64,000 bases of DNA from Falsiroseomonas sp. (GTDB lineage Bacteria; Pseudomonadota; Alphaproteobacteria; Acetobacterales; Acetobacteraceae). Shown piece after piece: positions 20,654-44,363 of this stretch. A program made the position numbers and the translations under genes. The DNA is taken from assembly GCF_030695085.1 (NCBI RefSeq), contig NZ_JAUYTS010000079.1, forward strand, positions 15,208 through 79,207, in the 5' to 3' direction. Under the pieces are notes generated by a model. It was not told the origin of the DNA, searched no databases, and was given only the letters and a program-made list of their open reading frames with translations. Position 1 is the stretch's first letter. Every line of letters begins with the position of its first letter.

Positions 20654-21678
20654 ACAGGTTGCAGGGTCTAGCCGCCGAGGATCGTGCCGCCTGCCGCGCC
20701 ATGCTCGCCAGCGGGTCGAAATCCTTCCGGGCTGCTTCACTACTGCTGCCGGCGCGAATCGCGGAACCGGCGGCGGCGCTCTATGCCTTCTGCCGCGTCG
20801 CCGATGACGCGATCGATGAGGCGCCGGACCCCGTCGCGGCCCTGCCGCCGCTGCAGCGCAGGCTGGATGCGATCTATGCCGGGCGGCCGCAGGCGCATGC
20901 GGCGGATCGCGCCTTCGCCGTGGTGGTCCGGGATTTTGCCATCCCGCAGGTGCTGCCCGCCGCGCTGCTTGAGGGTTTCGCCTGGGATGGCGAGGGCCGG
21001 CGCTACGCCGATCTCGCAGCGCTGGAGGGCTATGCCGCGCGTGTTGCCGCCACGGTCGGCGCGATGATGACGCTGCTGATGGGGGTGCGCGATGCCGCCG
21101 CGCTCGCGCGTGCCTGTGACCTCGGCGTGGCCATGCAGTTCACCAACATCGCCCGCGATGTGGGAGAGGACGCGCGCAATGGCCGGCTCTATTTGCCGCT
21201 CGACTGGTTGGCGCAGGAAGCGATTTCGGCGGAGGAATTCCTCGCCCGGCCGGTCTTCACCCCGGCGCTCGGCCGTGTGGTGCAGCGGCTGCTGGATGCG
21301 GCGGATGTGCTGTATGCGCGGGCGGAGGATGGCTTCGCCCGGCTGCCCTGGGATTGCCGTGCGGGCATCGGCGCCGCGCGCCACGTCTATGCCGGGATCG
21401 GCCGCGCGGTGGAACGCCAGGGCGGCGATTCGGTCAGCCGGCGCGCCATGGTGCCGAACCGCAGCAAGGCGCTGCTGATGGCGCGTGGCGCCGCGGCGCT
21501 GACCGCCCGGCGCGCCGCCAATCCGGCACCACCCCTGCCGGCGACCCGCTTCCTGGTGGAAGCGGTGGCCGCGCAGGCGCCGCTGTCCAAAGATCGGCTG
21601 GCGGAGCGGATTGCCCGCGCTGTCGCCCTGTTCGATCGCCTGGCGGAAAGTGCGACTCTGGGTCCGATGGCGCGCTGA
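20650..21678 (+). CDS. crtB: Phytoene synthase
   Basis: GSKSFRAAS, YAFCRVADDAID, LGVAMQFTNIARDVGEDA and GRLYLP motifs. Confidence 0.95.
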   Translation: MNRLQGLAAEDRAACRAMLASGSKSFRAASLLLPARIAEPAAALYAFCRVADDAIDEAPDPVAALPPLQRRLDAIYAGRPQAHAADRAFAVVVRDFAIPQVLPAALLEGFAWDGEGRRYADLAALEGYAARVAATVGAMMTLLMGVRDAAALARACDLGVAMQFTNIARDVGEDARNGRLYLPLDWLAQEAISAEEFLARPVFTPALGRVVQRLLDAADVLYARAEDGFARLPWDCRAGIGAARHVYAGIGRAVERQGGDSVSRRAMVPNRSKALLMARGAAALTARRAANPAPPLPATRFLVEAVAAQAPLSKDRLAERIARAVALFDRLAESATLGPMAR

Positions 21679-21681
21679 GTC

Positions 21682-22491
21682 TCAGCGCACCACCGCCAGC
21701 CGGTACAGATGCCAGGTCGCATGCCCCAGCACCGGCAGCACGACGGCCAGCCCGATGAACAGCGGCAGCGAGCCGAGCAGCAGCAGCACCGCCACAATCA
21801 GCCCCCAGGCCGCCATCGGCAGTGGATTCTTCGCGACCACGCGCAGCGAGGTGCCGATGGCCTGCCCCAGCCCGGCCTGCGGCCGGTCCAGCAGCATGGG
21901 AAAGGACACCACCGTCAGCGCCAGCACCAGCGCGGCGAAGCCAAGTCCAACCACGTGGCCCAGCAGCAGCATGCGCTGCCCCTCCGACGTGCCGAAGACC
22001 TGTTCCAGCAGCGCCAGGCCGCCGCCGTTGAAGCGCGGGTCCTGCGCCAGCGTGCCGAGGGTGGCCGCATGGATCGCATCCGCCGCCCAAAGCCAGGCGA
22101 GGAACACAACCAGCAGCAGTACGCCGAGGCCGATGATGGCCGGCAGAGCCGGTGCACGCAGCACACCGAACACATCGGTCCAATGGGTCGGCTGCCCGGC
22201 CTCCCGCCGCCGGCTGATCTCATACAGGCCGAGCGCGGCAAGCGGGCCGACCAGGGCGAAGCCGGCGGCCATCGGGTAGAACAGGTGCATCACCTCGCCC
22301 CCCGCCGCCAGCGTGGCCGCCACCAGCCCGATGAGTGGATAGAGGACACAGAGGAACATCAACTGCGTCGGCGTGGCCAGGAAATCAGCCCAGCCCTCGC
22401 GCAGGGCGGCGCGCAGATCCCCCAGCCCGATGCGCCGCAGCGCCGGCGGGGAGAGATCGAGATGTCGCGTGGTGGTCATAGCCTCAGCCAT
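21682..22491 (-). CDS. DUF2189-like integral membrane protein
   Basis: About 6 TM helices; GFALVGPLAALGLYEISRRRE, VVSFPMLLDR and LPVLGHATWHLY motifs typical of DUF2189. Confidence 0.8.
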   Translation of the reverse strand: MAEAMTTTRHLDLSPPALRRIGLGDLRAALREGWADFLATPTQLMFLCVLYPLIGLVAATLAAGGEVMHLFYPMAAGFALVGPLAALGLYEISRRREAGQPTHWTDVFGVLRAPALPAIIGLGVLLLVVFLAWLWAADAIHAATLGTLAQDPRFNGGGLALLEQVFGTSEGQRMLLLGHVVGLGFAALVLALTVVSFPMLLDRPQAGLGQAIGTSLRVVAKNPLPMAAWGLIVAVLLLLGSLPLFIGLAVVLPVLGHATWHLYRLAVVR

Positions 22492-22560
22492 CGTTCGCTT
22501 CCCCCATTCAGGTTCCACGGACGGCCCGGTGCCGGCGATGGCCGGCAAGGACCCCGCGAC

Positions 22561-22672
22561 TGTCAAGTGGGGCGTACAGGGCCTCGCTGCGCCTCAAGCC
22601 CGCGTGACCGAATGACGGTTGACTTGACTGTCAAGAAAGTCTGACACTCCGGACTGACAAGCTGGACTTACA
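22561..22672. promoter_or_regulatory. Three PpsR boxes in the DUF2189/crtE divergent region
   Basis: TGTCAAGTGGGGCGTACA (22561-22578), TGTCAAGAAAGTCTGACA (22629-22646) and TGACAAGCTGGACTTACA (22655-22672, one mismatch). Confidence 0.85.
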
Positions 22673-24724: not shown

Positions 24725-24776
24725 CGCTCGCATGTCAGTTTGTCTTGACATGTGCGACTGTCAGGGTAGGCTGACA
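24709..24776. promoter_or_regulatory. Three tandem PpsR boxes upstream of bchC
   Basis: TGTCAGCATTACCTGACG (24709-24726), TGTCAGTTTGTCTTGACA (24733-24750) and TGTCAGGGTAGGCTGACA (24759-24776). Confidence 0.88.
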
Positions 24777-32222: not shown

Positions 32223-33292
32223 GCCTCACCGCACGCGTCGGCCTGGTCTTCGCCGCAGCCCTTTGCGTCGTGATCGTGCTGATGACCTTCGAACGGCCAC
32301 CGGTGACCACAAGCCAGCAAGGCTTCCGTGGCGTCGCGATGGAGCAGGTGGTCAACCCGCGCACCCAGGCGGTGCGCCTCGCGGCCAACCGTGTTCCGGA
32401 GGCGCTTGAAGCCGCCGATACGGATGGCGAGAGGGCGCGCGAAATCTACGAGAACGTCCAGGTGCTGGGCGAACTGAGCGTCGCGCAGTTCGGCCGCATC
32501 ATGCAGGCGATGACGGAGTGGATCGCCCCGGAGCAGGGCTGCGCCTATTGCCACAATGTCGAGAACATGGCGTCCGACGAAGTCTACACCAAGGTGGTGT
32601 CGCGCCGGATGCTGCAGATGACGCGCACCATCAATGTGGACTGGACGCCGCATGTCGGCGCAGCCGGTGTCACCTGCTACACCTGCCACCGGGGCCGCCC
32701 GGTGCCGGCGGAGGTCTGGGCCTCCACCATCCTGCCGCATAACGGCCTGCAGGCCTCGCGTGGTCAGAACCACCCCGCGCCGGTCGCCAATCTCAGTTCG
32801 CTGCCCGGCGAGCCCTTCACGCCCTTCCTCCTGCAGGATCAGGAGATCCGCGTGATCAGCACGGCGGCGCACCCGAACGGCAACCCGGTGGGCACCATGC
32901 AGACCGAGTGGACCTATGCGCTGATGATGCACATGTCCGAGGGTCTCGGCGTGAACTGCACCTTCTGCCACAACAGCCGGTCCTTCGCGAACTGGTCCAC
33001 CAGTCCGCCGTCGCGGCTGACGGCCTGGCACGGCATCCGCATGGTGCGGGACATCAACAACGACTATGTAGTGCCGCTGACGCCGCTGTGGGCCGCCAAT
33101 CCGCGCGGCCCGGCGGAAGGCCCGCACATGCCGCGGCTCGGTCCGGCCGGGGATGCGTTGAAGGTGAACTGCGCTACCTGCCACCAGGGCGCCAACCGGC
33201 CCTTCTACGGTGCGCCGATGCTGCAGGACTATCCGGAGCTCAACCTGGTCTCCGACGGCCCGCTGCGCGCAGCCTCGGCTGCCGCGCAGTGA
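32219..33292 (+). CDS. pufC: RC-bound tetraheme cytochrome c subunit with N-terminal TM helix
   Basis: Four CxxCH motifs (CAYCH, CYTCH, CTFCH, CATCH) and FERPP..QQGFRG; ATGA overlap with pufM. Confidence 0.97.
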
Positions 33293-33298
33293 CCTGCC

Positions 33299-33331
33299 AC
33301 GGCGCCAGGCCCGCGCGGCCTGGCTGCCGTG
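33299..33331 (+). terminator. GC-rich hairpin after pufC (probable terminator)
   Basis: ACGGC-GCCAGGCC / GGCCTGGC-T-GCCGT inverted repeat followed by GTTT. Confidence 0.5.
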
Positions 33332-33361
33332 TTTGCATCCAGCGCGTAATCGGGCATAGCC

Positions 33362-33805
33362 ATGTCCGTGGCTGGCATGCTGGAACTTCTCGGGTTGTTT
33401 GCGGTGGCGCTCGGCGCCGCCAGCCTGCTTCCCATGGCATCGGAACCGCTGCTGGTCGGGCTGCTGCTTTTGGGCGGGCAGCCCGTTTGGCTGTTGGTGG
33501 CGGTGGCGAGCCTGGGCAACACGCTGGGCTCCGTCATCAACTGGGCGCTGGGCCTGCAGTTGCTGCGCTGGCAGGACCGGCGCTGGTTTCCCGTGAAGCC
33601 CTCGGCGCTGGAACGGGCGAGCGGCTGGTACCGTCGCTGGGGCTATTGGTCGCTGCTGCTGAGCTGGGCGCCGGTCATCGGCGATCCGCTGACACTGGCC
33701 GCCGGCGTGATGCGCGAACCGTTCTGGCGCTTCCTTCTGCTGGTCGCCGTTGCGAAGACGGGACGCTATGTGGTGCTTGCGCTGGTGACGCTCGGCCTCA
33801 CCTGA
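33362..33805 (+). CDS. yqaA: YqaA/DedA (VTT-domain) membrane protein
   Basis: AASLLPMASEPLL, GNTLGSVINW, LLLSWAPVIGDPLT and KTGRY motifs. Confidence 0.85.
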   Translation: MSVAGMLELLGLFAVALGAASLLPMASEPLLVGLLLLGGQPVWLLVAVASLGNTLGSVINWALGLQLLRWQDRRWFPVKPSALERASGWYRRWGYWSLLLSWAPVIGDPLTLAAGVMREPFWRFLLLVAVAKTGRYVVLALVTLGLT

Positions 33806-33824
33806 GCGGAAGGGAGGACGCAGC

Positions 33825-35351
33825 ATGATGGACGGCACGGATCTGCATCGGGACACCCGCCCACATGCCGTGGTCATCGGTGCCGGGTTTGGCGGACTGG
33901 CCGCCGCCATCCGCCTCGGCGCCCGCGGTTGGCGCGTGACGGTGGTGGAGAAGCTGGATGCGCCCGGCGGCCGCGCCTATGTCTACCGGCAGGATGGCTT
34001 CACCTTCGACGCCGGCCCCACCATCATCACCGCGCCCTATCTGCTGGAAGAGTTATGGACGCTGGCCGGGCGCCGCATGGCGGATGACCTCGACCTGCGG
34101 GCGATGAACCCCTTCTACCAGATACGCTTCGACGACGGCACGGTGATGAATTGCAGCGCCGACCTGGTGGCGACGCGGACCGAGATTGCGCGCATCGCGC
34201 CGGAGGATCTGCCGGGCTTCGACCGCTTCATCGCCGATAGCGAGAAAATCTTCGAGGTCGCCTTCGCGAAGCTCGCCGACCAGCCCTTCCACCAGCTCGG
34301 CACGCTGCTGCGTGCGGTGCCGGACATGCTGCGGCTGCAGGGCTACCGCACCGTCTACAGCAAGGTCAGCGACTATTTCACCAATGACAAGCTGCGTATC
34401 GCGTTCAGCTTCCATCCGCTGCTGATCGGCGGCAACCCGCTGAACACCACCGCCTATTACTGCCTGATCGCGCATCTGGAGCGGCTGCATGGCGTGCATT
34501 ATGCCATGGGCGGCATGGGCGCGGTGGTCGACGGTCTGGTGGGCCTGATCCAGCATTTCGGCGGCACGCTGCGGACCGGGACCGAGGTGCAGCAGATCAC
34601 GGTGCAGAATGGCCGTGCCAGCGGCGTGCGTCTGGCCGGCGGCGAAACACTCGCCGCCGACATCGTCATCTCGAACGCCGATGTGGGCTGGACCTATACC
34701 AAGTTGCTCTCGGAGCATAAGCGCCGGCGCTGGACGGATGCGAAAGTCGCGCGCGCCAATTATTCGATGAGTCTTTTCGTCTGGTATTTCGGCACGAACC
34801 GGCGCTTCGAGGATGTGTATCACCACACCATGGTGCTCGGCCCGCGCTACAAGGAATTGCTGACGGACATCTTCAAGCGGAAGGTGCTGTCGGAAGATTT
34901 CTCGCTGTACCTGCATCGGCCGACCGCGACCGACCCCTCCCTCGCCCCGCCTGGCTGCGACAGTTTCTACGTGCTGTCACCGGTGCCACATCTCGGCAGC
35001 GGCACGGATTGGGCGCAGCACGCCGAACCCTACCGCGCCGCCATCGAAAAGCGCCTGGAGGAAACGGTGCTGCCCGGCCTCGGCGCAAGCCTCGTCACCT
35101 CCCGGGTCCTGACACCGCAGGATTTCCGCGACCGGCTGCTTTCCGTGCAGGGTGCCGCCTTCTCGCTGGAACCCCAGCTTTTCCAATCCGCCTGGTTCCG
35201 TCCTCACAATGTCAGCGAGGACTTACCCGGCCTCTACCTTGTCGGCGCCGGCACCCACCCTGGCGCGGGGGTCCCTGGCGTCGTTTCCTCGGCGCGTATT
35301 CTCGACCAGGTCGTGCCGCATGGCAGCGCGGTGGTGCGCGCGCCGGCCTGA
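33825..35351 (+). CDS. crtI: Phytoene desaturase
   Basis: AVVIGAGFGGLA FAD motif, GFTFDAGPTIITAP, NYSMSLFVWYFG and VGAGTHPGAGVPGV. Confidence 0.96.
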   Translation: MMDGTDLHRDTRPHAVVIGAGFGGLAAAIRLGARGWRVTVVEKLDAPGGRAYVYRQDGFTFDAGPTIITAPYLLEELWTLAGRRMADDLDLRAMNPFYQIRFDDGTVMNCSADLVATRTEIARIAPEDLPGFDRFIADSEKIFEVAFAKLADQPFHQLGTLLRAVPDMLRLQGYRTVYSKVSDYFTNDKLRIAFSFHPLLIGGNPLNTTAYYCLIAHLERLHGVHYAMGGMGAVVDGLVGLIQHFGGTLRTGTEVQQITVQNGRASGVRLAGGETLAADIVISNADVGWTYTKLLSEHKRRRWTDAKVARANYSMSLFVWYFGTNRRFEDVYHHTMVLGPRYKELLTDIFKRKVLSEDFSLYLHRPTATDPSLAPPGCDSFYVLSPVPHLGSGTDWAQHAEPYRAAIEKRLEETVLPGLGASLVTSRVLTPQDFRDRLLSVQGAAFSLEPQLFQSAWFRPHNVSEDLPGLYLVGAGTHPGAGVPGVVSSARILDQVVPHGSAVVRAPA

Positions 35352-35635
35352 CTTCGGGGCTGCTCCGCGCACAGCCGCGGCGCCCCTGCCATCACCGATT
35401 TGCACGCGAGTTTGATCGCAGATTGCCCAACCGGCGGATTCCAGGCCGCACGGTTCGCCTTTGCGTGCGCCATGATCGCAACGGCTGCAACGACGCTCCC
35501 CAATGCATCTGAAGGCGTCGTAAAGAGACGAAAGTCTAAAAAAGATACGAAAGATGCCAGGGTTGTTAACTCCGTGCGCCCGACACTCCCGTATAACACC
35601 CGTGTTGCATGTCTTTTTACGGGAAGGGTCGCAAA

Positions 35636-36322
35636 ATGAAGTCTATCCTGCTCGTCTGCAGCGATGGTCGCCTTCGTGCCAGTCTGGCTGACGGTCTCGC
35701 CGCGTCCTTCGCGGTGCAGGAGGCGGAAGACGCCGCCGCAGCCGAAGCCTTCCTCATGGCGGCCGGCGCGGGCTGCGATGCGGTGCTGATCGATACCGGC
35801 CTGCGCGCGGCGGATGGCCCGGAGCTTTGCCGCAGCCTGCGGTCGAAGGGCATCGACATGCCGATCCTGTTGCTCAGTGAGGCAAGAGGCGAGGCGGATG
35901 TGGTGGCCGGCCTCGACGGCGGCGCCAATGACTACGTGCTGAAACCCTTCAGCATGGAGGAATTGCGGGCCCGCCTCCGCGCCCACCTGCGGATATCGGC
36001 GACGGCGGAATCGGCGGTGCGAACCATCGGGCCCTATGCGTTCCGCCCCTCCGCGAAACAGCTGTTCGAGCGCACCCGCAACCGCACCATCCGGCTGACC
36101 AGCAAGGAGGTCGCGGTGCTGAAATACCTCCACGCCGCCGATGGGCGGCCGGTGGCGAAGCACACGCTGCTGATGGATGTGTGGGGCTACAACAACGCCG
36201 TCAGCAGCCACACGCTGGAGACCCATATCTGGCGCCTGCGCCAGAAGATGGAGGACAACCCAGCCAATGCCCGGCTGCTGCTGACCAATCGCGATGGCTA
36301 TCGCCTGAACCACGCGGTCTGA
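35636..36322 (+). CDS. OmpR-family response regulator (receiver plus winged helix), orphan
   Basis: AVLID phospho-Asp, DYVLKPF, LTSKE, VWGY, HTLETHIWRLRQKME; no kinase gene nearby. Confidence 0.88.
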   Translation: MKSILLVCSDGRLRASLADGLAASFAVQEAEDAAAAEAFLMAAGAGCDAVLIDTGLRAADGPELCRSLRSKGIDMPILLLSEARGEADVVAGLDGGANDYVLKPFSMEELRARLRAHLRISATAESAVRTIGPYAFRPSAKQLFERTRNRTIRLTSKEVAVLKYLHAADGRPVAKHTLLMDVWGYNNAVSSHTLETHIWRLRQKMEDNPANARLLLTNRDGYRLNHAV

Positions 36323-36560
36323 CGATGACGGGTTTTCTGCAACCCCGTTTCGTCGGCGGCCGGGTCGCCGATGAGGCCGTGCGATGAGTGTGCTGGAGGC
36401 CGCACAGGCCATCTGCCGGCTCGTCCGGCGGCCGCGCCCGCCGGGCCAGGGTGGTGCGGGTGGCGGCTCCGGCACCGCGCCATCCGCCGTCTCACCGACG
36501 GAATTCGTCGATGGCCGGTGGCAGGTTCTCGGCGGCAGCCGCAGCCATGCGGTGGAGACG

Positions 36561-37112
36561 ATGGCGAGGCCCGCCCGGCGGATCGCCCAGGCCTCGCTCC
36601 CGCTGGCCACGGGGGCCGCGGTCACCGGGGGCACGATCCTGGTCTGCCAGGCGCTCGGCCTGCCCGGCGCGCTGATGGAGGCCGGGCGCGGGCTGCTGGC
36701 CGATGGCGGTGACGCCGCGGATGGCGGTGACGCAGAGACCGGCAATGTGGCGGGGTCCGTGGGCGTGGTGGCAGGTTCGGCGATCGGCGGCGGCGCGGGT
36801 GCCGTGGCTGGTGCGACACCCTCCCCGAGCGATGCATCGCCTGCAGCGATCCCGCCTGGCGACGGGATTCAGCTTCTCATGGCGGCTCCCAGCCTCTTCC
36901 CCAACGGCAGTCTGCCGCAGGATGGGGTGCGGCTCGTGGATGGTCCGCGCCAGGTGGTCCAGCCGGAGCCCACGCCTGTGTCCGAGCCCGGCTCGCTCGC
37001 GTTGTTTGGCGTGTCGCTCGCACTGGTGGGCGGCATCCTGCTCACCACCGCGGCCAGGCGCCGCCGGGTTGTGCGTTCGGCGCACCCTCGCCGCATGGAT
37101 GGTGCGGCCTGA
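36561..37112 (+). CDS. PEP-CTERM-like sorting-domain protein (start 36561; ORF is open from 36384)
   Basis: C-terminal PTPVSEPGSLALFGVSLALVGGILLTTAARRRR (VPEP-like motif, TM helix, basic cluster); Gly/Ala/Asp low-complexity body; GGAG RBS before ATG 36561. Confidence 0.65.
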   Translation: MARPARRIAQASLPLATGAAVTGGTILVCQALGLPGALMEAGRGLLADGGDAADGGDAETGNVAGSVGVVAGSAIGGGAGAVAGATPSPSDASPAAIPPGDGIQLLMAAPSLFPNGSLPQDGVRLVDGPRQVVQPEPTPVSEPGSLALFGVSLALVGGILLTTAARRRRVVRSAHPRRMDGAA

Positions 37113-37133
37113 ACAGGCCTGCGGCGCCGCGGT

Positions 37134-38612
37134 CTACCGGCGCCAGCCGCGCTCCAGCACCCGCGCCGCCGCCAGCCGGCCCGACATGGCGGCCATCGGG
37201 ATGCCCGGACCTGGGTGGACGGAGCCGCCAGCGAGGAACAGGCCGGGCAGGCGTGACCCGGCGCCGGGACGGGCGAAGGTGCCGGTGGCCCCGTGGCTGG
37301 CGCGGCCGTACAGCGCGCCGCCGGTGCCGGGGAACAGGCCGTGGAAGCCGGCCGGCGTGGTGGTCGTGGTGTTGCCGGGGGTCGCCTCGATCTCCAGGCC
37401 GCAGCGGCGCAGCAGGGCCAGGCTGCGGTGCTGCAACTGCTCCAGCGCATCGGGCGGCAGCTCGGCCAGGTCGCCATCGGCGGGGGCGTTGACCAGCAGC
37501 AGCAGGCGCTCGGGCGTGCCGGACGGCACCTCGGCATGGCCGCGATCCTGGGCGCAGATGTAGACGGTGGGTGCTTCCGTGATCTGGCGAGCGCGGAAGA
37601 TCGCAGCGAATTCGGCGGCGTAGTCCTCGGCGAAGAAGACGTTGTGGTGGGTCAGCGGAAAGCCATGCGTCACCGCGTTCATGCACCAGGTAACGGCGGA
37701 GAGGGACCGCGCGGCGCGCGGCGTATCGCGCGCCGCGCGGCGGGCGCCGCCGCCGAGCAACCCCTGGCCGAGCGCCGCGACATCACCGTTGAACACCACC
37801 GCATCGGCGGCCAGCGTTTCGCCGCCGGCCAGGCGCACGCCGGCGGCGCGGCCGTTCTGCACCAGGATCTCCCGCACCTCCGCATTGAAGCGGAAGCTGG
37901 TGCCCTGGCTTTCGGCGAGGTCGCGGATGGCATCCGCCACCCGTCGCATGCCGCCCTCCACCAGCCAGACGCCATCCTGTTCGACATGCGCCACCAGCAT
38001 CAGCGTGGCGGGGGCGAGGAAGGGGGAGCAGCCGCAATAGGTGGCGTAGCGCCCGAATAGTTGCCGCAGCCGCGGATCGGTGAAATGTGTCCCGAGTGCC
38101 TGCCACATCGTCGCCCAGGGCGCCGTGCGCCACAGCGCATCCAGCCGCCCGACCCGGCGCACCAGATCGAGCGGGGAGGGCCGCTGCGCGGCGATGAAGC
38201 TGTGCTGCAAGGTGCGGAAGATATCCGCGCTGCGGGCGGTGAAATCGCGAAACCCCTGCGCGTCCCGCGCGCCCGCGAAATCGCCAATGGCCTCGGCGGA
38301 TCGGTCGAGATCCGCGAACAGGTCGAGCCGCCCGCCCGCGCGCCAGGCATGTCGCGCCAGGATGTCGGCGCGGCGCAGCACCAGCGCATCCTCCAGCCTC
38401 CGCCCCGCATCCTCGAAAAGCCCCGCAAAAATCCAGCGCATGGTGAAGACGGTGGGGCCGCCATCGATCGCCGCGCCGCCGGCCTGCACATGGCGCATCT
38501 TGCCGCCCGGTGTCGCCGCGCGTTCCAGCACGGTGACGCGCACGCCCTGGCGGGCCAGATCCGCCGCGGCCGACAGGCCACCCATGCCGGCGCCGATGAC
38601 CACCACATGCAT
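37134..38612 (-). CDS. crtD: 1-hydroxycarotenoid 3,4-desaturase
   Basis: VVIGAGMGGLSAA, IDGGPTVFTMRWIF, LFGRYATYCGCSP, FPGTGGALYGRASHG and SVHPGPGIPMAAMSG motifs. Confidence 0.94.
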   Translation of the reverse strand: MHVVVIGAGMGGLSAAADLARQGVRVTVLERAATPGGKMRHVQAGGAAIDGGPTVFTMRWIFAGLFEDAGRRLEDALVLRRADILARHAWRAGGRLDLFADLDRSAEAIGDFAGARDAQGFRDFTARSADIFRTLQHSFIAAQRPSPLDLVRRVGRLDALWRTAPWATMWQALGTHFTDPRLRQLFGRYATYCGCSPFLAPATLMLVAHVEQDGVWLVEGGMRRVADAIRDLAESQGTSFRFNAEVREILVQNGRAAGVRLAGGETLAADAVVFNGDVAALGQGLLGGGARRAARDTPRAARSLSAVTWCMNAVTHGFPLTHHNVFFAEDYAAEFAAIFRARQITEAPTVYICAQDRGHAEVPSGTPERLLLLVNAPADGDLAELPPDALEQLQHRSLALLRRCGLEIEATPGNTTTTTPAGFHGLFPGTGGALYGRASHGATGTFARPGAGSRLPGLFLAGGSVHPGPGIPMAAMSGRLAAARVLERGWRR

Positions 38613-38616
38613 GGCG

Positions 38617-39348
38617 TCAGGCGACCGCGCGCTGCCGCTGCCGGTTGCGCGCCTGGCGCTCCACCTCCAGCCGGTGCCAGATGATCAGCGCGAGGCCGAT
38701 GATCAGCGGAATGCTCCACATGCCCGGATGCAGCGCCAGTTCCGGAAAGATGCGGACGGAGCCGAAGGCCATGAAGGCGGTGTAGACCGAGATTCCGGCG
38801 CCGACGAAGGCCTTGATATGCTCCTTCAGCCAGTCCTCCCGCCTCACGCGCGGCTTGTGCAGGAACCACAGATTGGTCAGCCCGGTGGCAACCCCGACCA
38901 CGGCGATGCCGATCATCAGATTCTGCCCGATGATCCAGCCCTGCACCGCGCAGACCAGCGCGGCGGCGATCACGGCGTATTGCAGCGCCAGGTTCAAGGG
39001 CGTGCGGTTGGCGGCATGGCGCTGCTTGCTGGTGATGCAGAGCCAGCCATACCAGGCGAGGTTGATGGTCAGGATGCCGGTGTGCAGCATCATCCAGCCG
39101 AACATGCCGCGCAGGAACGGCGCATCGTAATCCGCGGCCAAATGCGGATGCGTGCCGAAGGGATCGGCCAGCGTCAGCAGGCTCATCGCCACCGCGAAGC
39201 TCCCCGTCGCAAGCATGGCGAAGGTGAAAATGCGCCCCCAGCGGCGATGATTCGCGCCGCCCTTGCGCCCGATCACCGGCACCCAGAAGGCGATGGCGCC
39301 GGTCACGCCGGTCAGGATATGCGCGATGACCAGGCTGTGGAACAGCAT
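38617..39348 (-). CDS. Uncharacterised multi-TM membrane protein (DUF2306-like), directly upstream of crtD
   Basis: About 7 hydrophobic segments; HILTG..FWVPVIGRKGGANHRRWGR N-terminus and EHIKAFVGAGISVYTAF near the C-terminus; its stop is 4 nt before the crtD ATG. Start could be GTG 39357. Confidence 0.7.
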   Translation of the reverse strand: MLFHSLVIAHILTGVTGAIAFWVPVIGRKGGANHRRWGRIFTFAMLATGSFAVAMSLLTLADPFGTHPHLAADYDAPFLRGMFGWMMLHTGILTINLAWYGWLCITSKQRHAANRTPLNLALQYAVIAAALVCAVQGWIIGQNLMIGIAVVGVATGLTNLWFLHKPRVRREDWLKEHIKAFVGAGISVYTAFMAFGSVRIFPELALHPGMWSIPLIIGLALIIWHRLEVERQARNRQRQRAVA

Positions 39349-39361
39349 CAACGCCACCTGC

Positions 39362-39402
39362 TGTTCTCCTCCCTTGACAGAAAGTGACAATGCCACTTGA
39401 CA
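39362..39402. promoter_or_regulatory. Tandem PpsR boxes in the divergent membrane-protein/P450 intergenic region
   Basis: TGTTCTCCTCCCTTGACA (39362-39379, perfect TGT-N12-ACA) and TGACAATGCCACTTGACA (39385-39402, one mismatch; same half-sites as the crtE-region boxes). Confidence 0.8.
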
Positions 39403-39424
39403 GTTCCCGCTGCAAGGCGAGGAA

Positions 39425-40819
39425 ATGACGGCGATGGAAGGCTTTGGCGCCAGCGTGGCGCGAGAATTCGTGCCGCCGCACCCCACGCCGCGCTCCCCCG
39501 TGGTGGCGCTGTTCCGCGCGCTGCTGGAGGGGGAGGGAGATCTGCTCGGCCTGCTGCCGGCGGAAGCCTACACCATGCCGATCGGGCCGCTGGGCTATTC
39601 GCGGCGGTCCATCGTGGTGGTGAACGAGCCGAAGCTGGTGCGCCACGTGCTGGTGGACCCGGACGGCATCTTCCCGAAATCGGACCTGATGGTGAATGCG
39701 CTGGAGCCGCTGATCGGCGACAGCATTTTTGTCAGTTCCGGCGCCACCTGGAAGCGCCAGCGCCAGATGATGGACCCGGCGCTGACCCTGATGCGGGTGA
39801 ACCGCGCCTTCCCCTGCATGGAGGCCGGGATCGAGGCCGCGGAAGCGACGTTGGACCAGGCGGTGGCGTCGCGGGAGGCCTTCTCGCTGGACCTGGCGAT
39901 GAGCCATCTGACGGCGGATATCATCTGCCGTTCCGTCTTCTCCACCAGCCTGCAATCGCGCGTGGCGCATGAGGTGTTCGACGCCTTCACCTTCTTCGAA
40001 CGCAGCGTGGCCCAGGTGGAAATCCGCCGCCTGATCATGGACCGTGCCTGGACGCGCATCCCCCAGACCCAGGCGGTGCAGGACAGTTGCGCGCTGATCC
40101 GCCGCAGCCTCGGCGAACTGCTCGACAGCCACCTCGATGCCGGCCAGAGCTTCGACGACATCGCCAGCGCCGTCGTTGCCGCGCGGGATGGGGAAGGCCG
40201 CGCCTTCACGCGGGAGGAGTTGATCGACCAGCTCGGCGTGCTGTTCCTGGCCGGGCATGAAACCAGCGCCAGCGCGCTGACCTGGGTGTTCTACCTGTTG
40301 GCCTCGCGGCCCGACTACGTGGCGCGGCTGCGCGCGGAAATTACGGCGGTGTGCGGTGACGGGCCGATCGGCTTCGAACACACCAAGCGCCTGGTCTTCA
40401 CCCGAAACGTGTTCCGCGAAACGCTGCGCCTGTACCCGCCCATCACCTTCCTGCCGCGCATCGCCAATGAGGCGACGCGCATCGGAGACTACAAGGTGAA
40501 GCGCGGCGCGCTGATCATGATCGCCCCCTGGCTGATCCACCGGCACCGCCGCTACTGGACCAACCCCAACACCTTCGACCCGGATCGCTTCCTGCCGGAA
40601 CGCGAGGCGGAGATGACCTCCGGCGCCTACATCCCCTTCGGCATCGGCCCGCGCATCTGCGCCGGCGCCGCCTTCGCGACGGTGGAGGCGGTGCTGCTGA
40701 TCGCCCGCCTGTTCCGCCGCTTCGACTTTGCGCTGGTGGAGCCGCAGGATATCCGCCCGGCCGCGCGGCTGACCACGCGGCCGGCGCGGCAGATCCAGAT
40801 GCGGGTGACGGCGGCCTGA
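39425..40819 (+). CDS. Cytochrome P450
   Basis: I-helix FLAGHETSA, K-helix ETLR, FDPDRF and heme motif PFGIGPRICAG. Confidence 0.95.
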   Translation: MTAMEGFGASVAREFVPPHPTPRSPVVALFRALLEGEGDLLGLLPAEAYTMPIGPLGYSRRSIVVVNEPKLVRHVLVDPDGIFPKSDLMVNALEPLIGDSIFVSSGATWKRQRQMMDPALTLMRVNRAFPCMEAGIEAAEATLDQAVASREAFSLDLAMSHLTADIICRSVFSTSLQSRVAHEVFDAFTFFERSVAQVEIRRLIMDRAWTRIPQTQAVQDSCALIRRSLGELLDSHLDAGQSFDDIASAVVAARDGEGRAFTREELIDQLGVLFLAGHETSASALTWVFYLLASRPDYVARLRAEITAVCGDGPIGFEHTKRLVFTRNVFRETLRLYPPITFLPRIANEATRIGDYKVKRGALIMIAPWLIHRHRRYWTNPNTFDPDRFLPEREAEMTSGAYIPFGIGPRICAGAAFATVEAVLLIARLFRRFDFALVEPQDIRPAARLTTRPARQIQMRVTAA

Positions 40820-41937
40820 TGCCGACCGTGCTTCTGACGCTCGGCCGGTTGCCCAAGGCGCTCGACCTCGCGCGCGGTTTTTCCGGGATCGGTTGGCGCG
40901 TCGTCGTCGCTGAGCCCTTTGCGCGGCACCTCTGCGGATCCTCCCGCGCCGTTGCGAAATCCATCCGCGTACCGGCACCGGCGGATGGCAAGCCGGCCTA
41001 TCTGGCGGCGCTCGCCAAGGTGGTGCGGGATGAGGCGGTGGAGCTTGTGCTGCCGGTGTCGGAGGAGACGATGCATGTCGCCCACCTGCCGCCGCTGCTG
41101 CCGGACGGCGTGCGCGTGCTGACCATGCCGCCCGAGGTGCTGCTGCCGCTGCACCACAAGGGCGGCTTCGTCGCCTTTGCCCGCGCACACGGGTTGGACG
41201 TGCCGGATTCGGCGCCGCTCGGTGACGTGCGGGCGGAGGCGCTGGTGGCCACGGGCCGGGTGGTGGTGAAGCCGGTGCATGGTTGCTCCGGCCGCGGCGT
41301 GCTGATGTTGCCGCAGGGCGCGGCGCTGACGCCGGCGGAAGTGCCCTGCCTGGTGCAACGCTTCGTCGCCGGGGCGGAGTTCAGCACCTGTTCCCTCGCG
41401 CATCAGGGACGCGTGCTGGCCACTACGGTCTATCGCGGACTGCAGATGTCCGGCTCCGTTGCCGTGGCGTTCGAGCGTGTGGCGCATCCCGCCATCGAGG
41501 ATTGGGTGCGCCGTTTCGCCGCCGCCGCCAACTGGTCCGGCTTCATCGCCTTCGACCTGATCGTGGATGAAGCGGGCCGCCCCTGGGGGCTGGAATGCAA
41601 CCCTCGCACCACCAGCGGCCTGCATTTCTTCGAGCCCGCCGATCTGGCCCGCGCCGTGCTGGACCCGGCCGCCCCAACGCCGCGCCACCGGCCGGAAACG
41701 CGCTTGCAGCAATTCTGGTCCTGCCTGACGGAGACACAGCTTTCGCTGTTTCGCGGCGGCCCCTTCCGGCGCAATCTGCGCCAGTTGCTGACCACGCGCG
41801 ATGTCTGCTGGCAGGCGCGGGACCCGATGCCGCTGCTGGCGATGCCCTGGACCACCTGGCCCATCATTCGCATGGCGACGCAGAAGCGCGTTCCCTTCGG
41901 GGAGGTCGCGACGCTGGATGTAGGGTGGTACGCCTAG
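40819..41937 (+). CDS. ATP-grasp domain protein, uncharacterised
   Basis: VVKPVHGCSGRGV, LVQRFVAGAEFS, GFIAFDLIVD..PWGLECNPRTTSG (ATP-grasp ExN motif); TGATG overlap with the P450 stop. Confidence 0.85.
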   Translation: MPTVLLTLGRLPKALDLARGFSGIGWRVVVAEPFARHLCGSSRAVAKSIRVPAPADGKPAYLAALAKVVRDEAVELVLPVSEETMHVAHLPPLLPDGVRVLTMPPEVLLPLHHKGGFVAFARAHGLDVPDSAPLGDVRAEALVATGRVVVKPVHGCSGRGVLMLPQGAALTPAEVPCLVQRFVAGAEFSTCSLAHQGRVLATTVYRGLQMSGSVAVAFERVAHPAIEDWVRRFAAAANWSGFIAFDLIVDEAGRPWGLECNPRTTSGLHFFEPADLARAVLDPAAPTPRHRPETRLQQFWSCLTETQLSLFRGGPFRRNLRQLLTTRDVCWQARDPMPLLAMPWTTWPIIRMATQKRVPFGEVATLDVGWYA

Positions 41938-42092
41938 CCCGGCCTCAACCGAACACCTCGTCCGCGCCTGCGGCCAGGACACGCGGTTCCGGTTCACCGG
42001 CAGCGTCGCGATGCCCCTCTCGCCCAAGGTACGGCAGAATGGCGCCGGGTCGGTCCCCGCCTGTTTGTCATGCTGCGATCGACCAGCCCGGC

Positions 42093-42830
42093 TCAGCCGG
42101 TCGCCTCGAGGTCCGCCAGCACCGCCTCGACCGGGCCATCGGCCACGACGGTGCCGCCCTCGAGCCGGATCGCGCGGTTGCACCAGCGGCGCACCACGTC
42201 ATAGTCATGCGTCGCGACCACCATGATGTCGGCGCCACCGACCAGCCGGGCCAGCCGTTCCTCCGCCCTGGCCATGAAGGCCGCATCGCCGGCGAGGAAC
42301 CATTCATCCATCAGCAGCACCTGCGGCTGCAGGGCGGTGGCCATGGCGAAGGCCAGGCGCACGCTCATGCCGGCGGAAAAGGTCCGGATCGGCACGTCGA
42401 AGAAATCGCCCAGCGCGGCGAATTCCGCCACCTCCTCCGCCAGCAGGTCGCATTCGGCATCGGTCAGGCCGCGATACAGGCCGCGCAGGCGGACATTTTC
42501 CCGCCCCGTGGAATCCAGGTCCATGCCGGCGGCCACGTCGATCAGCGCGCCGATCTGGCCGGTGACGGTCAGGCTGCCGGCGACCGGTTCATAAACCCCG
42601 GCGAAGGTCCGCAGCAGGGTGGTCTTGCCCGCGCCATTGGGGCCGACCAGCGCCACGCGTTCACCGGTGCCGATGCGGAAATTCAGGTCCCGCAGCGCGG
42701 TGACGACAATGCGGTTGGAGGGGTCCTTGTGCAGCCGGGACCTGCCCATCAGCCGCTTCTTCAGCGACCGCGCGCCGATATGGTAGTACGGGAAATCCAG
42801 GCTGAGCCCGCGGGCTTCGATCACGGCCAT
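42093..42830 (-). CDS. Polysaccharide export ABC transporter ATP-binding protein (Wzt/RfbB-like)
   Basis: GPNGAGKTT Walker A, FSAGMSVRLAFA signature, LLMDEW Walker B and ATHD H-loop. Confidence 0.9.
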   Translation of the reverse strand: MAVIEARGLSLDFPYYHIGARSLKKRLMGRSRLHKDPSNRIVVTALRDLNFRIGTGERVALVGPNGAGKTTLLRTFAGVYEPVAGSLTVTGQIGALIDVAAGMDLDSTGRENVRLRGLYRGLTDAECDLLAEEVAEFAALGDFFDVPIRTFSAGMSVRLAFAMATALQPQVLLMDEWFLAGDAAFMARAEERLARLVGGADIMVVATHDYDVVRRWCNRAIRLEGGTVVADGPVEAVLADLEATG

Positions 42831-42841
42831 GCTTGCCTGCC

Positions 42842-43696
42842 CTAGACCCAGAAGGCCACGCGGCTGCGGAAGCGCACGAAGAACGCCGCCGCCATCGCCA
42901 CGGTCGCCAGCGTGTAGAGAATGGCCGCGAGCCAGGCCAAGGGTGGGCCGCCACCCTCCACCAGCGGGCCGCGCACCGTCTCCAGCAACGCATAGAACGG
43001 GTTCAGCGGCATCCAGACCTCCCACCCACCGAGCAGCTTCGGCTTCCACAGGATGGGGGTCAGGAAGAAGGCAAGCTGCATGATGCTGCCGACGATCGGG
43101 GCGATGTCGCGGAACCGGGCGCAGAGCATGCCAAGAAACAGCGCGGCGGCGACCGCGTTGATGGCGATCAGGATGAAGCCCGGGATGGCCAGCAGCGCCT
43201 CCGGCCCCGGCAGATGACCGCAGAGCAGGAAGACCAGCAGGATCAGCGGCAGGTTGTGCGCGGCGATGATGCCGTTGCGCATCGCACAGCGCAGCGCATG
43301 CACGGTATAGGGCAGCGGCAATTGCCGGATGATGGCCTCGGAGGAGGTCAGGCTGGTGGTGGCGTCATTCACCATCTGGCTGATGGCGTTCCAGATCACC
43401 AGGCTGACTGCCAGATGCGGCAGGTATTCCCGCAGCGGCAGGTCGAACAGCCGCGCATACAGCAGGCCGAGACCGGCCAGCATCACGCCGGTGGACAGGG
43501 TCAGCCAGAACGGGCCGAGGACGGAGCCGCGGTAGCGGTTGCGGATATCGAGCCAGGCGAGGGTAAGGGCCAGGCGCCAGCGGCTGGTGCCCAGCCGCAC
43601 ATCCTCGATCGCCTTGCGCAACCGCTGAGGGTCTGCCGAGTCGACATGATAAGCCGGCATCGTCGCGGCGGTCTGGTCCAGCATGCGGCGGCTCAT
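42842..43696 (-). CDS. Polysaccharide export ABC-2 permease (Wzm/RfbA-like)
   Basis: DIRNRYRGSVLGPFWLTL, RFRDIAPIV, FFLTPILW and NPFYALLETVRGPL motifs. Confidence 0.9.
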   Translation of the reverse strand: MSRRMLDQTAATMPAYHVDSADPQRLRKAIEDVRLGTSRWRLALTLAWLDIRNRYRGSVLGPFWLTLSTGVMLAGLGLLYARLFDLPLREYLPHLAVSLVIWNAISQMVNDATTSLTSSEAIIRQLPLPYTVHALRCAMRNGIIAAHNLPLILLVFLLCGHLPGPEALLAIPGFILIAINAVAAALFLGMLCARFRDIAPIVGSIMQLAFFLTPILWKPKLLGGWEVWMPLNPFYALLETVRGPLVEGGGPPLAWLAAILYTLATVAMAAAFFVRFRSRVAFWV

Positions 43697-43745
43697 AGCC
43701 CGGCGGATTACGCCGGGCCAGGGCTTCATGCCGGGTTGGCGACGA

Positions 43746-44363
43746 CTACTTCACGGCGCCGCGATTGCCCTGCGGCGAGGCATAGGGGCTGGAGACCTGC
43801 GCCCCGGTCCCGGCACCCGGCGCATAGCTCTGCGGGGGCAGGTAGGCCGGCGGCGGCGGGCCGCCCGCGGCGCGGGACAGGCGCACGCGGTCGCCGCGCG
43901 TGATCACCACGCGATCGCCGGCCTGAAGCCCTTCCTCATTCGTCTGCACCACGGCGATGTCGCCGCCACGATCCTCCCGCACCACGAATTCAATGGCGGT
44001 GCCGCGGGTCATGCCGCCTTCCACCGCGCTGCCGGCCAGGCCGCCGAGCAGCGCGCCACCGAGTCCGGCCAGCAGGTTGGAGCGGGTGTCGCCGCCGATG
44101 AAGCTGCCGGCGATGCCGCCCGCCACCGCGCCGCCCACCGTGCCGACGCCGGTGCTGCCGCCCGCGACCTGCACCGGCCGGCTGCCGACGATGGTGCCGT
44201 AGGAGACGGAGGCAGCGCTGCCCAGCGTGCCCGCGCGGACCGTGCTGCCGGTCTGCTGCGGCGCGCAGGCCGGAAGAGTGGCCACCAGGGCCAGCGCGGC
44301 GACGGCGGGGATCAGCCCCCGGGTCAGGCGCCCGTTGGTCAGACGCAGGGGTGTCAGGCGCAT
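43746..44363 (-). CDS. Glycine-zipper 2TM outer-membrane lipoprotein (SlyB-like)
   Basis: Signal peptide ending LPAC; glycine zipper GAVAGGIAGSFIG..GALLGGLAG; C-terminal IAVVQ..LQAGDRV. Confidence 0.85.
   Translation of the reverse strand: MRLTPLRLTNGRLTRGLIPAVAALALVATLPACAPQQTGSTVRAGTLGSAASVSYGTIVGSRPVQVAGGSTGVGTVGGAVAGGIAGSFIGGDTRSNLLAGLGGALLGGLAGSAVEGGMTRGTAIEFVVREDRGGDIAVVQTNEEGLQAGDRVVITRGDRVRLSRAAGGPPPPAYLPPQSYAPGAGTGAQVSSPYASPQGNRGAVK

What the first reader, a model, noticed from the sequence alone, without database searches (positions are those of the whole stretch)
38617..41937. PpsR-boxed divergent module (membrane protein-crtD <> cytochrome P450-ATP-grasp ligase): candidate undescribed pigment-tailoring pathway
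Seen: the intergenic gap of only about 70 bp (39349-39424) carries two tandem PpsR-type boxes (39362-39379 and 39385-39402) of the kind found at crtE and bchC. Leftward is a multi-TM DUF2306-like gene, 4 nt upstream of crtD. Rightward is an intact P450 translationally coupled (TGATG) to an ATP-grasp protein. Established: PpsR/CrtJ binds paired TGT-N12-ACA sites at bch/crt/puc promoters; neither a P450 nor a stand-alone ATP-grasp gene belongs to the standard PGC gene set; ATP-grasp enzymes activate carboxylates for amide or ester formation. Inference: the module is co-regulated with photopigment synthesis and modifies a carotenoid, for example P450 oxidation of a methyl group to a carboxylic acid followed by ATP-grasp ligation to an amine or alcohol. 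As I recall, polar 'carotenoic acids' have been reported from aerobic phototrophic Acetobacteraceae; their genes are not known to me.
Basis: partly seen in the sequence, partly recalled or inferred. Interest (0 to 1): 0.9.

Follow-up and report, generated by a model that had tools for sequence, protein, structure and literature searches.

The report
Conserved P450–ATP-grasp module among carotenoid genes
Three unnamed genes (a histidine-rich membrane protein, a cytochrome P450 and an ATP-grasp ligase) sit among the carotenoid genes of the photosynthesis gene cluster in at least 75 bacterial species, which points to an undescribed carotenoid-modifying pathway whose product is still unknown.

Summary
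CrtD, a 7-helix membrane protein, a 67-76 bp gap, an intact P450 and a stop/start-overlapping ATP-grasp gene lie at the edge of a Falsiroseomonas photosynthesis gene cluster (PGC).

The "two PpsR boxes" are only half right:
- Box 1 is an exact TGT-N12-ACA. It overlaps the membrane gene's ribosome-binding site and recurs in only 3 of the 77 related loci checked.
- Box 2 is not a palindrome. It belongs to a conserved three-half-site array (71 of 78 sequences). Elsewhere that architecture occurs almost only at bchC, crtE and ppsR promoters.

In the 80 best related species genomes, the membrane<>P450-ATP-grasp triad is complete in 75. The other five are cut by contig ends. Its neighbours are almost always crtD, crtI, crtC or crtB, also in several Hyphomicrobiales.

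The P450's closest solved relative is the plant carotenoid hydroxylase CYP97A3 (30% identity). The ATP-grasp folds as a generic carboxylate ligase. The membrane protein matches no solved fold.

No paper found links these enzymes to PGCs. A PGC-co-regulated carotenoid-tailoring role is well supported by context. The specific chemistry (methyl to acid, then ligation) is untested inference.

The parts
37134..38612 (-). crtD, 1-hydroxycarotenoid 3,4-desaturase. It lies downstream of the membrane gene in this lineage only.
   Evidence: NF045637 681.9 bits against cutoff 580. The membrane-adjacent CrtDs form one derived clade.
38617..39357 (-). Histidine-rich membrane protein with 7 predicted helices (246 aa from GTG 39357, or 243 aa from ATG 39348). 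It is the first gene of the leftward transcription unit.
   Evidence: Translation. Shine-Dalgarno GGGAGGAG lies 8 nt before the GTG. Invariant H10, H34, H67, H69 and H177. AF2 pLDDT 87 with 7 helices. No PDB fold match. DUF2306 is sub-threshold.
39362..39379 (.). Box 1: an exact TGT-N12-ACA that overlaps the membrane gene's ribosome-binding site. It is lineage-specific.
39385..39415 (+). Conserved array of three half-sites at 13-bp phase: TGACA 39385-89, TGACA 39398-402, TGCAA 39411-15 (TGTAA in most relatives).
   Evidence: Conserved in 71 of 78 sequences. In the window, the array type occurs only here and at the crtE and bchC promoters. Across 1.43 Mb of window plus loci, 68 of 82 occurrences are at this gap and nearly all others at bchC, crtE, ppsR, crtI or crtB promoters.
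39425..40819 (+). Cytochrome P450, soluble and E-class-like. An alternative start is ATG 39434.
   Evidence: Pfam p450 250 bits. Cys-ligand, ExxR and I-helix motifs present. Best PDB relative CYP97A3, E=1.6e-49, 29.7% identity. Sub-threshold similarity to CYP170A1 and PtlI.
40819..41937 (+). Stand-alone ATP-grasp enzyme (COG3919/PRK06849-like), translationally coupled to the P450 (TGATG).
   Evidence: Pfam ATP-grasp_3 33.7 bits against cutoff 23.2. PRK06849 241.8 bits, below cutoff 406. AF2 pLDDT 91. Foldseek finds generic ATP-grasp ligases and carboxylases. K151 and E259-x-N261 are invariant. The stop/start overlap is conserved in relatives.
22629..22672 (.). Comparator: half-site array at the DUF2189<>crtE divergent promoter.
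24733..24776 (.). Comparator: two canonical TGT-N12-ACA palindromes 8 bp apart at the bchC promoter.

Best explanation
The core unit is a three-gene module. A histidine-rich 7-helix membrane protein is transcribed leftward. A cytochrome P450 and a translationally coupled ATP-grasp enzyme are transcribed rightward. They share one compact divergent promoter.

Shown here:
- The module is an integral, vertically conserved part of the carotenoid block of photosynthesis gene clusters in the Roseomonas/Falsiroseomonas/Paracraurococcus/Dankookia group of Acetobacteraceae. It also occurs in several Hyphomicrobiales.
- Its promoter carries a 13-bp-phased array of TGACA/TGTCA half-sites. The same architecture is found at the bchC and crtE promoters.

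Inferred:
- The array is bound by PpsR/CrtJ, so the module is switched together with pigment synthesis.
- The enzymes tailor the acyclic (lycopene/rhodopin/spirilloxanthin-type) carotenoid. The P450 introduces oxygen, for example by stepwise oxidation of a methyl group to alcohol, aldehyde and acid.
- The ATP-grasp enzyme activates a carboxylate as an acyl phosphate and joins it to an amine or hydroxyl group, giving a polar carotenoid conjugate.
- The membrane protein either presents the membrane-embedded substrate, docks the two soluble enzymes, or uses its conserved histidines to bind a metal or haem and carry out or support a redox step.
For: - Synteny: the triad is complete in 75 of the 80 best species genomes. 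The other five are truncated by contig ends.
- Neighbours change, but they are crt genes. Left of the membrane gene: crtD 55, crtI 12, crtB 1 of 71 evaluable loci. Right of the ATP-grasp gene: crtC 40, crtB 4, crtI 4.
- In Hyphomicrobiales the triad sits between crtI and crtB.
- The P450-ATP-grasp stop/start overlap is conserved.
- Operator: the block is conserved in 71 of 78 sequences. The triple half-site array gives 9 matches against 0.02 expected in the window, all at crtE, bchC and this gap. In window plus loci, 68 of 82 occurrences are at this gap and nearly all the rest at bchC, crtE, ppsR, crtI or crtB promoters.
- P450: among solved structures it is closest to the carotenoid hydroxylase CYP97A3 (family profile E=2.3e-60, 35 bits above the next hit). 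CYP97C1 is also matched. It shows sub-threshold likeness to the terpene oxidases CYP170A1 and PtlI.
- ATP-grasp: catalytic residues are intact. The fold resembles L-amino-acid ligases, PylC, PurK and CPS-like proteins.
- Literature: no P450 or ATP-grasp is in the described purple-bacterial carotenoid pathways. The genes for methyl-to-aldehyde or methyl-to-acid oxidation of acyclic carotenoids (rhodopinal, gemmatoxanthin) are unknown (PMC10604819; PMC8342508).
Against: - There is no expression, binding or chemical evidence.
- The only canonical PpsR palindrome in the gap is not conserved and overlaps a ribosome-binding site.
- The conserved block can also be read as two crossed sigma-70 promoters: -35 TTGACA rightward, and -35 TTTACA with -10 CATTGT leftward. 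That reading needs no repressor.
- Similarity to CYP97A3 is only 29.7% identity. It may reflect a general eukaryote-like P450 type rather than shared substrate.
- ATP-grasp enzymes also act as carboxylases and kinases, so ligation of a carotenoic acid is one of several chemistries.
- A 39%-identical paralogue of the membrane protein lies after acsF, next to puh genes, in another PGC without a P450. This hints at a photosystem role rather than a carotenoid role for that protein.
- No ferredoxin or reductase partner is in the cluster.
- The remaining roughly 214 genome hits were not inspected.
Confidence: 0.55

Rival explanations
1. The module serves the photosynthetic apparatus but not carotenoid tailoring. 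It might modify another membrane cofactor or lipid (bacteriochlorophyll tail, quinone, hopanoid or aminolipid), or act in photosystem assembly with the membrane protein as the key player.
For: - A 39%-identical paralogue of the membrane protein sits directly after acsF, among puh genes, in another PGC that has no P450 or ATP-grasp nearby.
- The wider membrane family (1091 representative clusters) also occurs in non-pigment contexts.
- The ATP-grasp fold gives no substrate clue.
Against: - Immediate neighbours are crt genes, not bch or puh genes, in nearly all loci and through several rearrangements.
- The P450's best solved relative is a carotenoid hydroxylase.
Confidence: 0.2
2. The conserved intergenic block is promoter architecture (two crossed sigma-70 promoters), or the site of a regulator other than PpsR. 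The module is then not under PpsR control.
For: - TTGACA (39397-39402) and, in most relatives, TTTACA on the other strand are near-perfect -35 hexamers 8 bp apart. CATTGT lies 18 nt from the leftward -35 (and direct reading).
- Box 2 is a direct repeat, not a palindrome.
- Box 1 is not conserved.
Against: - The same three-half-site, 13-bp-phased architecture is otherwise found almost only at bchC, crtE, ppsR and crtI promoters. These are established PpsR/CrtJ targets in other purple bacteria (my own knowledge of the field).
- PpsR sites classically overlap -35 and -10 elements, so the two readings are compatible.
- The tool's strict sigma-70 scan finds no promoter in the window's version.
Confidence: 0.3
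3. The P450 and ATP-grasp genes are passengers at the PGC border, for example a small secondary-metabolite or detoxification pair, with no role in pigments.
For: - In the window they are the last genes before an unrelated, convergent Wzm/Wzt polysaccharide exporter.
- In 22 loci, no crt gene was recognised within 1.5 kb downstream of the ATP-grasp gene.
Against: - In most other genomes the pair lies inside the crt block, followed by crtC, crtB or crtI.
- The pair keeps 59-96% identity and translational coupling across genera and two orders.
- It shares its promoter with the membrane gene throughout.
Confidence: 0.05

Closest known systems
CYP97A3/CYP97C1 (plant carotenoid ring hydroxylases LUT5 and LUT1)
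   Same: They are the best-scoring solved structures for the P450: E=1.6e-49 for the single sequence and 2.3e-60 for the family profile. Alignment is full length, and the Cys-ligand, ExxR and I-helix motifs are the same. Their substrate is a C40 carotenoid.
   Different: Identity is only 29.7%, below the 40% family convention. The plant enzymes are plastid enzymes acting on beta and epsilon rings, whereas the carotenoids here are expected to be acyclic. No function has been tested.
Bacterial carotenoid P450s CYP175A1 (Thermus) and CYP287A1 (Deinococcus); terpene oxidases CYP170A1 and PtlI
   Same: They set a precedent for soluble bacterial P450s that oxygenate carotenoids or terpenes, including stepwise methyl oxidation (PtlI). 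NCBIfam gives sub-threshold hits to CYP170A1 (205 bits) and PtlI (187 bits).
   Different: Neither hit reaches the equivalog cutoffs (700 and 800 bits). None of these enzymes is PGC-encoded or paired with an ATP-grasp enzyme. CYP175A1 and CYP287A1 were not compared here and are cited from my own knowledge.
ATP-grasp carboxylate-amine ligases (L-amino-acid ligases BL00235 and RizA, PylC, MysC-type)
   Same: The three-domain ATP-grasp fold is shared (Foldseek E about 1e-16, TM about 0.6). The ATP-binding Lys and the E-x-N Mg2+ site are conserved. Like them it is a stand-alone tailoring enzyme in a biosynthetic cluster.
   Different: There is no detectable sequence match to any solved chain. A conserved C-terminal helical extension of about 70 residues rich in aromatic residues is present. 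The substrate is unknown, and no ATP-grasp is known in any carotenoid pathway.
PpsR/CrtJ operators at bchC, crtE and puc promoters
   Same: The half-site is the same (TGTCA/TGACA), the spacing is the same 8 bp (13-bp phase), the site overlaps a TTGACA -35 hexamer, and it lies in a PGC promoter. Canonical examples in the same window are at 24733-24776 and 22629-22672.
   Different: The conserved core here is TGACA-N8-TGACA-N8-TGTAA (direct plus inverted), not a pair of TGT-N12-ACA palindromes. Binding has not been tested.
Pfam DUF2306 (uncharacterised membrane proteins)
   Same: There is weak N-terminal similarity (E=0.0018). Some distant family members also give weak DUF2306 hits.
   Different: All scores (17-27 bits) are below the gathering threshold of 31.6. 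The fold matches nothing in the PDB. A distinctive invariant histidine set (H10, H34, THPH at 66-69, EH at 176-177) is present.

Membership tests
Cytochrome P450 superfamily (PF00067) | Profile match above the gathering score | tested here: met
   250.2 bits against 22.8.
Cytochrome P450 superfamily (PF00067) | Cys-ligand loop FxxGxRxCxG, ExxR and I-helix [AG]Gx[DE]T[TS] | tested here: met
   FGIGPRICAG at 405, ETLR at 332, AGHETS at 276. All are invariant in 13 orthologues.
CYP97 family (carotenoid hydroxylases) | At least 40% amino-acid identity to family members (P450 nomenclature convention) | tested here: not met
   29.7% over 401 residues to CYP97A3.
CYP97 family (carotenoid hydroxylases) | Carotenoid hydroxylase activity | not testable with these tools
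   Needs an enzyme assay or a knockout.
ATP-grasp superfamily | ATP-grasp domain profile and fold | tested here: met
   PF02655 33.7 bits against 23.2. Foldseek probability 1.00 to many ATP-grasp enzymes.
ATP-grasp superfamily | Conserved ATP-binding Lys and the E-x-N Mg2+ site | tested here: met
   K151, E259 and N261 are invariant in 24 sequences.
NCBIfam PRK06849 (NF005315) equivalog | Score above the curated cutoff | tested here: not met
   241.8 bits against 406, although the alignment is full length.
Pfam DUF2306 | Score above the gathering threshold | tested here: not met
   18.9 bits against 31.6. Distant relatives score 17-27 bits.
PpsR/CrtJ-regulated promoter | Paired TGT-N12-ACA palindromes | tested here: not met
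   There is one exact palindrome (box 1) and it is not conserved. Box 2 is TGA-N12-ACA.
PpsR/CrtJ-regulated promoter | Half-site architecture shared with bona fide targets (bchC, crtE) in the same genomes | tested here: met
   The triple half-site array occurs only at crtE, bchC and this gap in the window. The same pattern holds across 80 loci.
PpsR/CrtJ-regulated promoter | PpsR binding and O2/light-dependent repression | not testable with these tools
   The public 'RNA' runs that hold this DNA cover all genes and intergenic DNA evenly, so they are uninformative.
CrtD (1-hydroxycarotenoid 3,4-desaturase) | NCBIfam equivalog score above cutoff | tested here: met
   NF045637 681.9 bits against 580.
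PuhE (DUF3623), considered for the membrane protein | Profile-profile homology | tested here: not met
   hhalign probability 0.3% against the window's own PuhE.

The most novel reading that the evidence does not exclude
The triad encodes the first P450-dependent and first ATP-grasp-dependent steps known in any bacterial phototroph's carotenoid pathway. It would make a carotenoic acid that is then ligated to an amine or alcohol, a new class of polar carotenoid conjugates in widespread freshwater and soil aerobic phototrophs. The histidine-rich membrane protein would be a new kind of membrane-embedded metallo- or haem partner for a soluble P450.
Probability: 0.3. Interest if true: 0.85.

Novelty: new variant of a known kind. 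Interest (0 to 1): 0.72.

Why it matters
Carotenoid pathways of purple and aerobic anoxygenic phototrophs are treated as essentially solved (CrtE, B, I, C, D, F, A). The genes for oxidising methyl groups of acyclic carotenoids to aldehydes or acids (rhodopinal, gemmatoxanthin, bacteriorubixanthinal) are still unknown (PMC10604819, PMC8342508, PMC12696874).

Here, three unnamed genes are as firmly embedded in the crt block as crtC or crtD. They occur in at least 75 species-level genomes, and the scan reported 294 genomes with a relative. Many of these are lake and soil metagenome-assembled genomes.

If the inference holds, it would:
- give a testable candidate for such oxidations;
- add two enzyme classes to bacterial carotenogenesis;
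- define a new membrane-protein family;
- extend the PpsR regulon.

It would also warn that carotenoid predictions made from the standard crt gene list alone are incomplete for these abundant aerobic phototrophs.

Tried and rejected
- **Membrane protein as a replacement for the missing CrtC hydratase.** Rejected. crtC is absent from the window and from +-10 kb of the 12 closest relatives, but it lies directly beside the triad in 40 other loci.
- **Membrane protein as a PuhE relative.** Rejected (hhalign probability 0.3%).
- **Fold assignment of the membrane protein.** No PDB match: best E=0.085, TM below 0.3, spurious GPCR hits. No PDB sequence hit either.
- **Sequence match of the ATP-grasp to solved structures.** None at E<=0.01.
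- **Expression evidence.** Four runs labelled RNA hold the locus, but they cover coding and intergenic DNA on both sides evenly, with contigs spanning the divergent promoter. This suggests DNA carry-over.
- **Strict sigma-70 and terminator scan.** No promoter. One weak terminator-like site after the ATP-grasp gene, no more than chance.
- **Literature.** Ten full-text searches found no paper connecting a P450 or an ATP-grasp enzyme to a photosynthesis gene cluster.
- **Treating the membrane gene-crtD pair as the conserved unit.** Rejected by the CrtD tree and by the neighbour counts.


Full report
**Where the window comes from and what surrounds the finding.**
The window (69% G+C) is a photosynthesis gene cluster (PGC) of a Falsiroseomonas (Acetobacteraceae). 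The closest genome is Falsiroseomonas sp. E2-1-a4, with 96% P450 identity.

Pfam and NCBIfam scans give this order:
- an aerR-like B12-binding gene (192-1151, -);
- bchFNBHLM, lhaA, puhABC, acsF, puhE, hemA, bchIDO;
- crtB (20629-21678), a DUF2189 membrane gene (-), crtE, crtF;
- bchCXYZ, pufBALMC, a DedA/VTT gene;
- crtI (33825-35351), an OmpR-type response regulator, a low-complexity ORF;
- crtD (37134-38612, -), the membrane gene (-), the P450 (+) and the ATP-grasp gene (+).

Next come a convergent Wzt/Wzm polysaccharide exporter and housekeeping genes. The module is therefore at the right-hand border of this PGC. No crtC and no ppsR are in the 64 kb. ppsR presumably lies left of the aerR-like gene, off the window.

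**Check of the observation.**
The gene claims hold.
- crtD passes the NCBIfam CrtD equivalog (681.9 bits against 580).
- The membrane ORF ends 4 nt before crtD.
- The P450 has all signature motifs.
- The ATP-grasp ATG overlaps the P450 stop (TGATG).
- The membrane gene probably starts at GTG 39357. That codon lies 8 nt after GGGAGGAG and matches the orthologue P0241, which begins MALMLFH. The gap is then 67 bp.

The box claims hold only in part.
- Box 1 (39362-39379) is one of nine exact TGT-N12-ACA matches in the window, against 3.65 expected.
- Box 1 spans that Shine-Dalgarno sequence, and the same box recurs only in the three closest loci.
- Box 2 is TGACAATGCCACTTGACA, a direct repeat of TGACA with 8-bp spacing.

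**What is really conserved in the gap.**
Aligning the gap from the window and 77 related loci shows a block tGACAAT-N5-CTTGACA-N8-TGTAAAG in 71 of the 78 sequences. The window and its nearest relatives have TGCAAG in the last element.

The block is three TGACA/TGTCA-type half-sites at 13-bp phase.
- In the window, TGACA-N8-TGACA (up to 1 mismatch) gives 11 matches against 1.44 expected. The three-half-site pattern gives 9 matches against 0.02 expected. Both sets fall only at the DUF2189<>crtE promoter, the bchC promoter and this gap.
- Over the 1.43 Mb of window plus 80 loci, the three-half-site pattern occurs 82 times. Sixty-eight are at the membrane<>P450 gap. Nearly all others lie at bchC, crtE, crtD2<>ppsR, crtI or crtB promoters.

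bchC and crtE promoters are classical PpsR/CrtJ targets (established knowledge). A shared regulator is therefore a reasonable inference, although the site is not a canonical pair of palindromes.

The block can also be read as two crossed sigma-70 promoters: TTGACA rightward, and TTTACA-N18-CATTGT leftward. The two readings are compatible, because PpsR sites typically overlap promoter hexamers. Binding and regulation remain untested. The only 'RNA' runs that hold this DNA look like DNA carry-over.

**Synteny.**
A scan of one genome per species with a P450 family alignment found 294 genomes with a relative. The best 80 were returned.
- In all 80, the P450 is flanked as in the window. The membrane(-)<>P450(+)-ATP-grasp(+) triad is complete in 75, and the other five are cut by contig ends.
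- The P450/ATP-grasp stop/start overlap (ATGA, GTGA, TGATG) is widespread.
- The neighbours vary, but they are carotenoid genes. Left of the membrane gene: crtD in 55 loci, crtI in 12, crtB in 1, of 71 evaluable. Right of the ATP-grasp gene: crtC in 40, crtB in 4, crtI in 4.
- Carriers include Falsiroseomonas, Roseomonas sensu lato, Neoroseomonas, Paeniroseomonas, Dankookia, Paracraurococcus, Roseicella, Plastoroseomonas, Rubritepida, Roseococcus and Rhodovarius.
- Outside the family, carriers include MAGs labelled Hyphomicrobium, Aestuariivirgaceae, Beijerinckiaceae and 'Rhizobium sp. Q54'. In the Beijerinckiaceae and 'Rhizobium sp. Q54' MAGs the triad sits between crtI and crtB.
- A neighbour-joining tree of CrtD shows that the membrane-adjacent CrtDs form one derived clade. 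Genomes with crtI at that position keep a single crtD in the canonical crtD-crtC pair. Some genomes carry both a membrane-adjacent crtD and a second, basal crtD2 next to ppsR.

The conserved unit is therefore the triad, not the membrane gene-crtD operon.

**The three proteins.**

*P450.* Homologues of at least 70% identity are abundant, but all are named only 'cytochrome P450'.
- Its best solved relatives are the plant carotenoid hydroxylases CYP97A3 (E=1.6e-49; family profile 2.3e-60, 35 bits above the next entry) and CYP97C1.
- Identity to CYP97A3 is 29.7%, so it is not a CYP97 member.
- NCBIfam shows sub-threshold likeness to the terpene oxidases CYP170A1 and PtlI.

*ATP-grasp.* Homologues are all unnamed.
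- No solved structure is detectable by sequence.
- A confident model (pLDDT 91) matches many ATP-grasp ligases and carboxylases equally: a CPS-like protein, PurK, the L-amino-acid ligases BL00235 and RizA, PylC and GAR synthetase, at TM about 0.6.
- The ATP-binding Lys and the E-x-N motif are invariant.
- A conserved, aromatic-rich C-terminal helical extension lies outside the common core.

*Membrane protein.* The model has 7 helices (pLDDT 87).
- Histidines H10, H34, H67, H69 and H177 are invariant.
- No fold or sequence match exists in the PDB.
- The DUF2306 hit is sub-threshold.
- Its wider family has 1091 representative clusters.
- One paralogue, 39% identical, lies directly after acsF in a different PGC without a P450. 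More distant members are in unrelated contexts.

**Mechanism.**
*Shown:* the three genes share a conserved divergent promoter and are embedded in crt genes across two orders. The enzymes are intact.

*Inferred:* the module acts on the acyclic carotenoid made by CrtI, CrtC, CrtD and CrtF. The P450 oxygenates it. The ATP-grasp enzyme activates a carboxylate and ligates it. The membrane protein gives access to the membrane-bound substrate, or is a metal or haem redox partner.

It fits the fact that the genes for methyl oxidation of acyclic carotenoids are unknown (PMC10604819; PMC8342508). Nothing here tests it. ATP-grasp enzymes can also carboxylate or phosphorylate. No redox partner gene is present.

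**Novelty and verdict.**
Ten full-text searches found no description of this module. The 2023 review of purple-bacterial carotenoid genes lists no P450 or ATP-grasp.

I rate it a new variant of a known kind: a carotenoid-tailoring gene set with unprecedented enzyme classes. My estimates are:
- about 0.55 that it is a PGC-co-regulated carotenoid-tailoring module;
- about 0.3 for the specific acid-ligation chemistry.

The finding deserves experimental follow-up.

Noticed in passing
window 35609-37112: An OmpR-family response regulator (35609-36322) and a Gly/Ala-rich low-complexity ORF (36384-37112) are inserted between crtI and crtD. They occur only in the window and its closest relative L001. 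In L002-L012, crtI and crtD are adjacent.
   Followed up: partly
whole window; L001-L012: No crtC (carotenoid 1,2-hydratase) is in the 64-kb window or within 10 kb of the triad in the 12 closest genomes, although crtD and crtF, which need a 1-hydroxy substrate, are present. In 40 other loci crtC lies directly downstream of the ATP-grasp gene. Whether crtC is elsewhere in these genomes could not be checked.
   Followed up: partly
L083 7001-7801: A 39%-identical paralogue of the membrane protein sits right after acsF, where puhE usually lies, in another organism's PGC. It is followed by a SHOCT-like gene and a polysaccharide deacetylase gene, with no P450 or ATP-grasp nearby. It has THLTL in place of the THPHL motif.
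   Followed up: partly
L017, L028, L030, L033, L051, L053, L057, L066 (e.g. L051 12494-16541): Some genomes carry two CrtD paralogues. One is next to the membrane gene. A basal second one lies in a crtD2-crtC pair, divergent from ppsR, with a half-site array in the crtD2<>ppsR gap.
   Followed up: partly
window 33362-33805: A small DedA/VTT-domain membrane gene lies between pufC and crtI. It is conserved at that position next to crtI in many of the related loci. Its role in the PGC is unknown.
   Followed up: no
window 21682-22566 and 22561-22672: A DUF2189 (BPSS1780-like) membrane gene is divergent from crtE and shares the boxed promoter region (boxes at 22561 and 22629, plus a four-half-site array). 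The pairing recurs in L020.
   Followed up: no
window 33000-44000, runs X4, X5, X6, X9: Wastewater runs labelled oligo-dT RNA-Seq hold a strain about 97% identical to the window. Coverage is even over genes and intergenic DNA, and contigs cross the divergent promoter. The signal is probably genomic DNA, not transcripts.
   Followed up: yes
window 192-1151: An aerR/ppaA-like B12-binding protein gene at the left edge gives a weak hit to CarH in its B12-binding part (28.5 bits) and no hit to any DNA-binding domain. PpsR-type sites lie at 1195-1228 and 1410-1455, between this gene and bchF. ppsR itself is not in the window.
   Followed up: no
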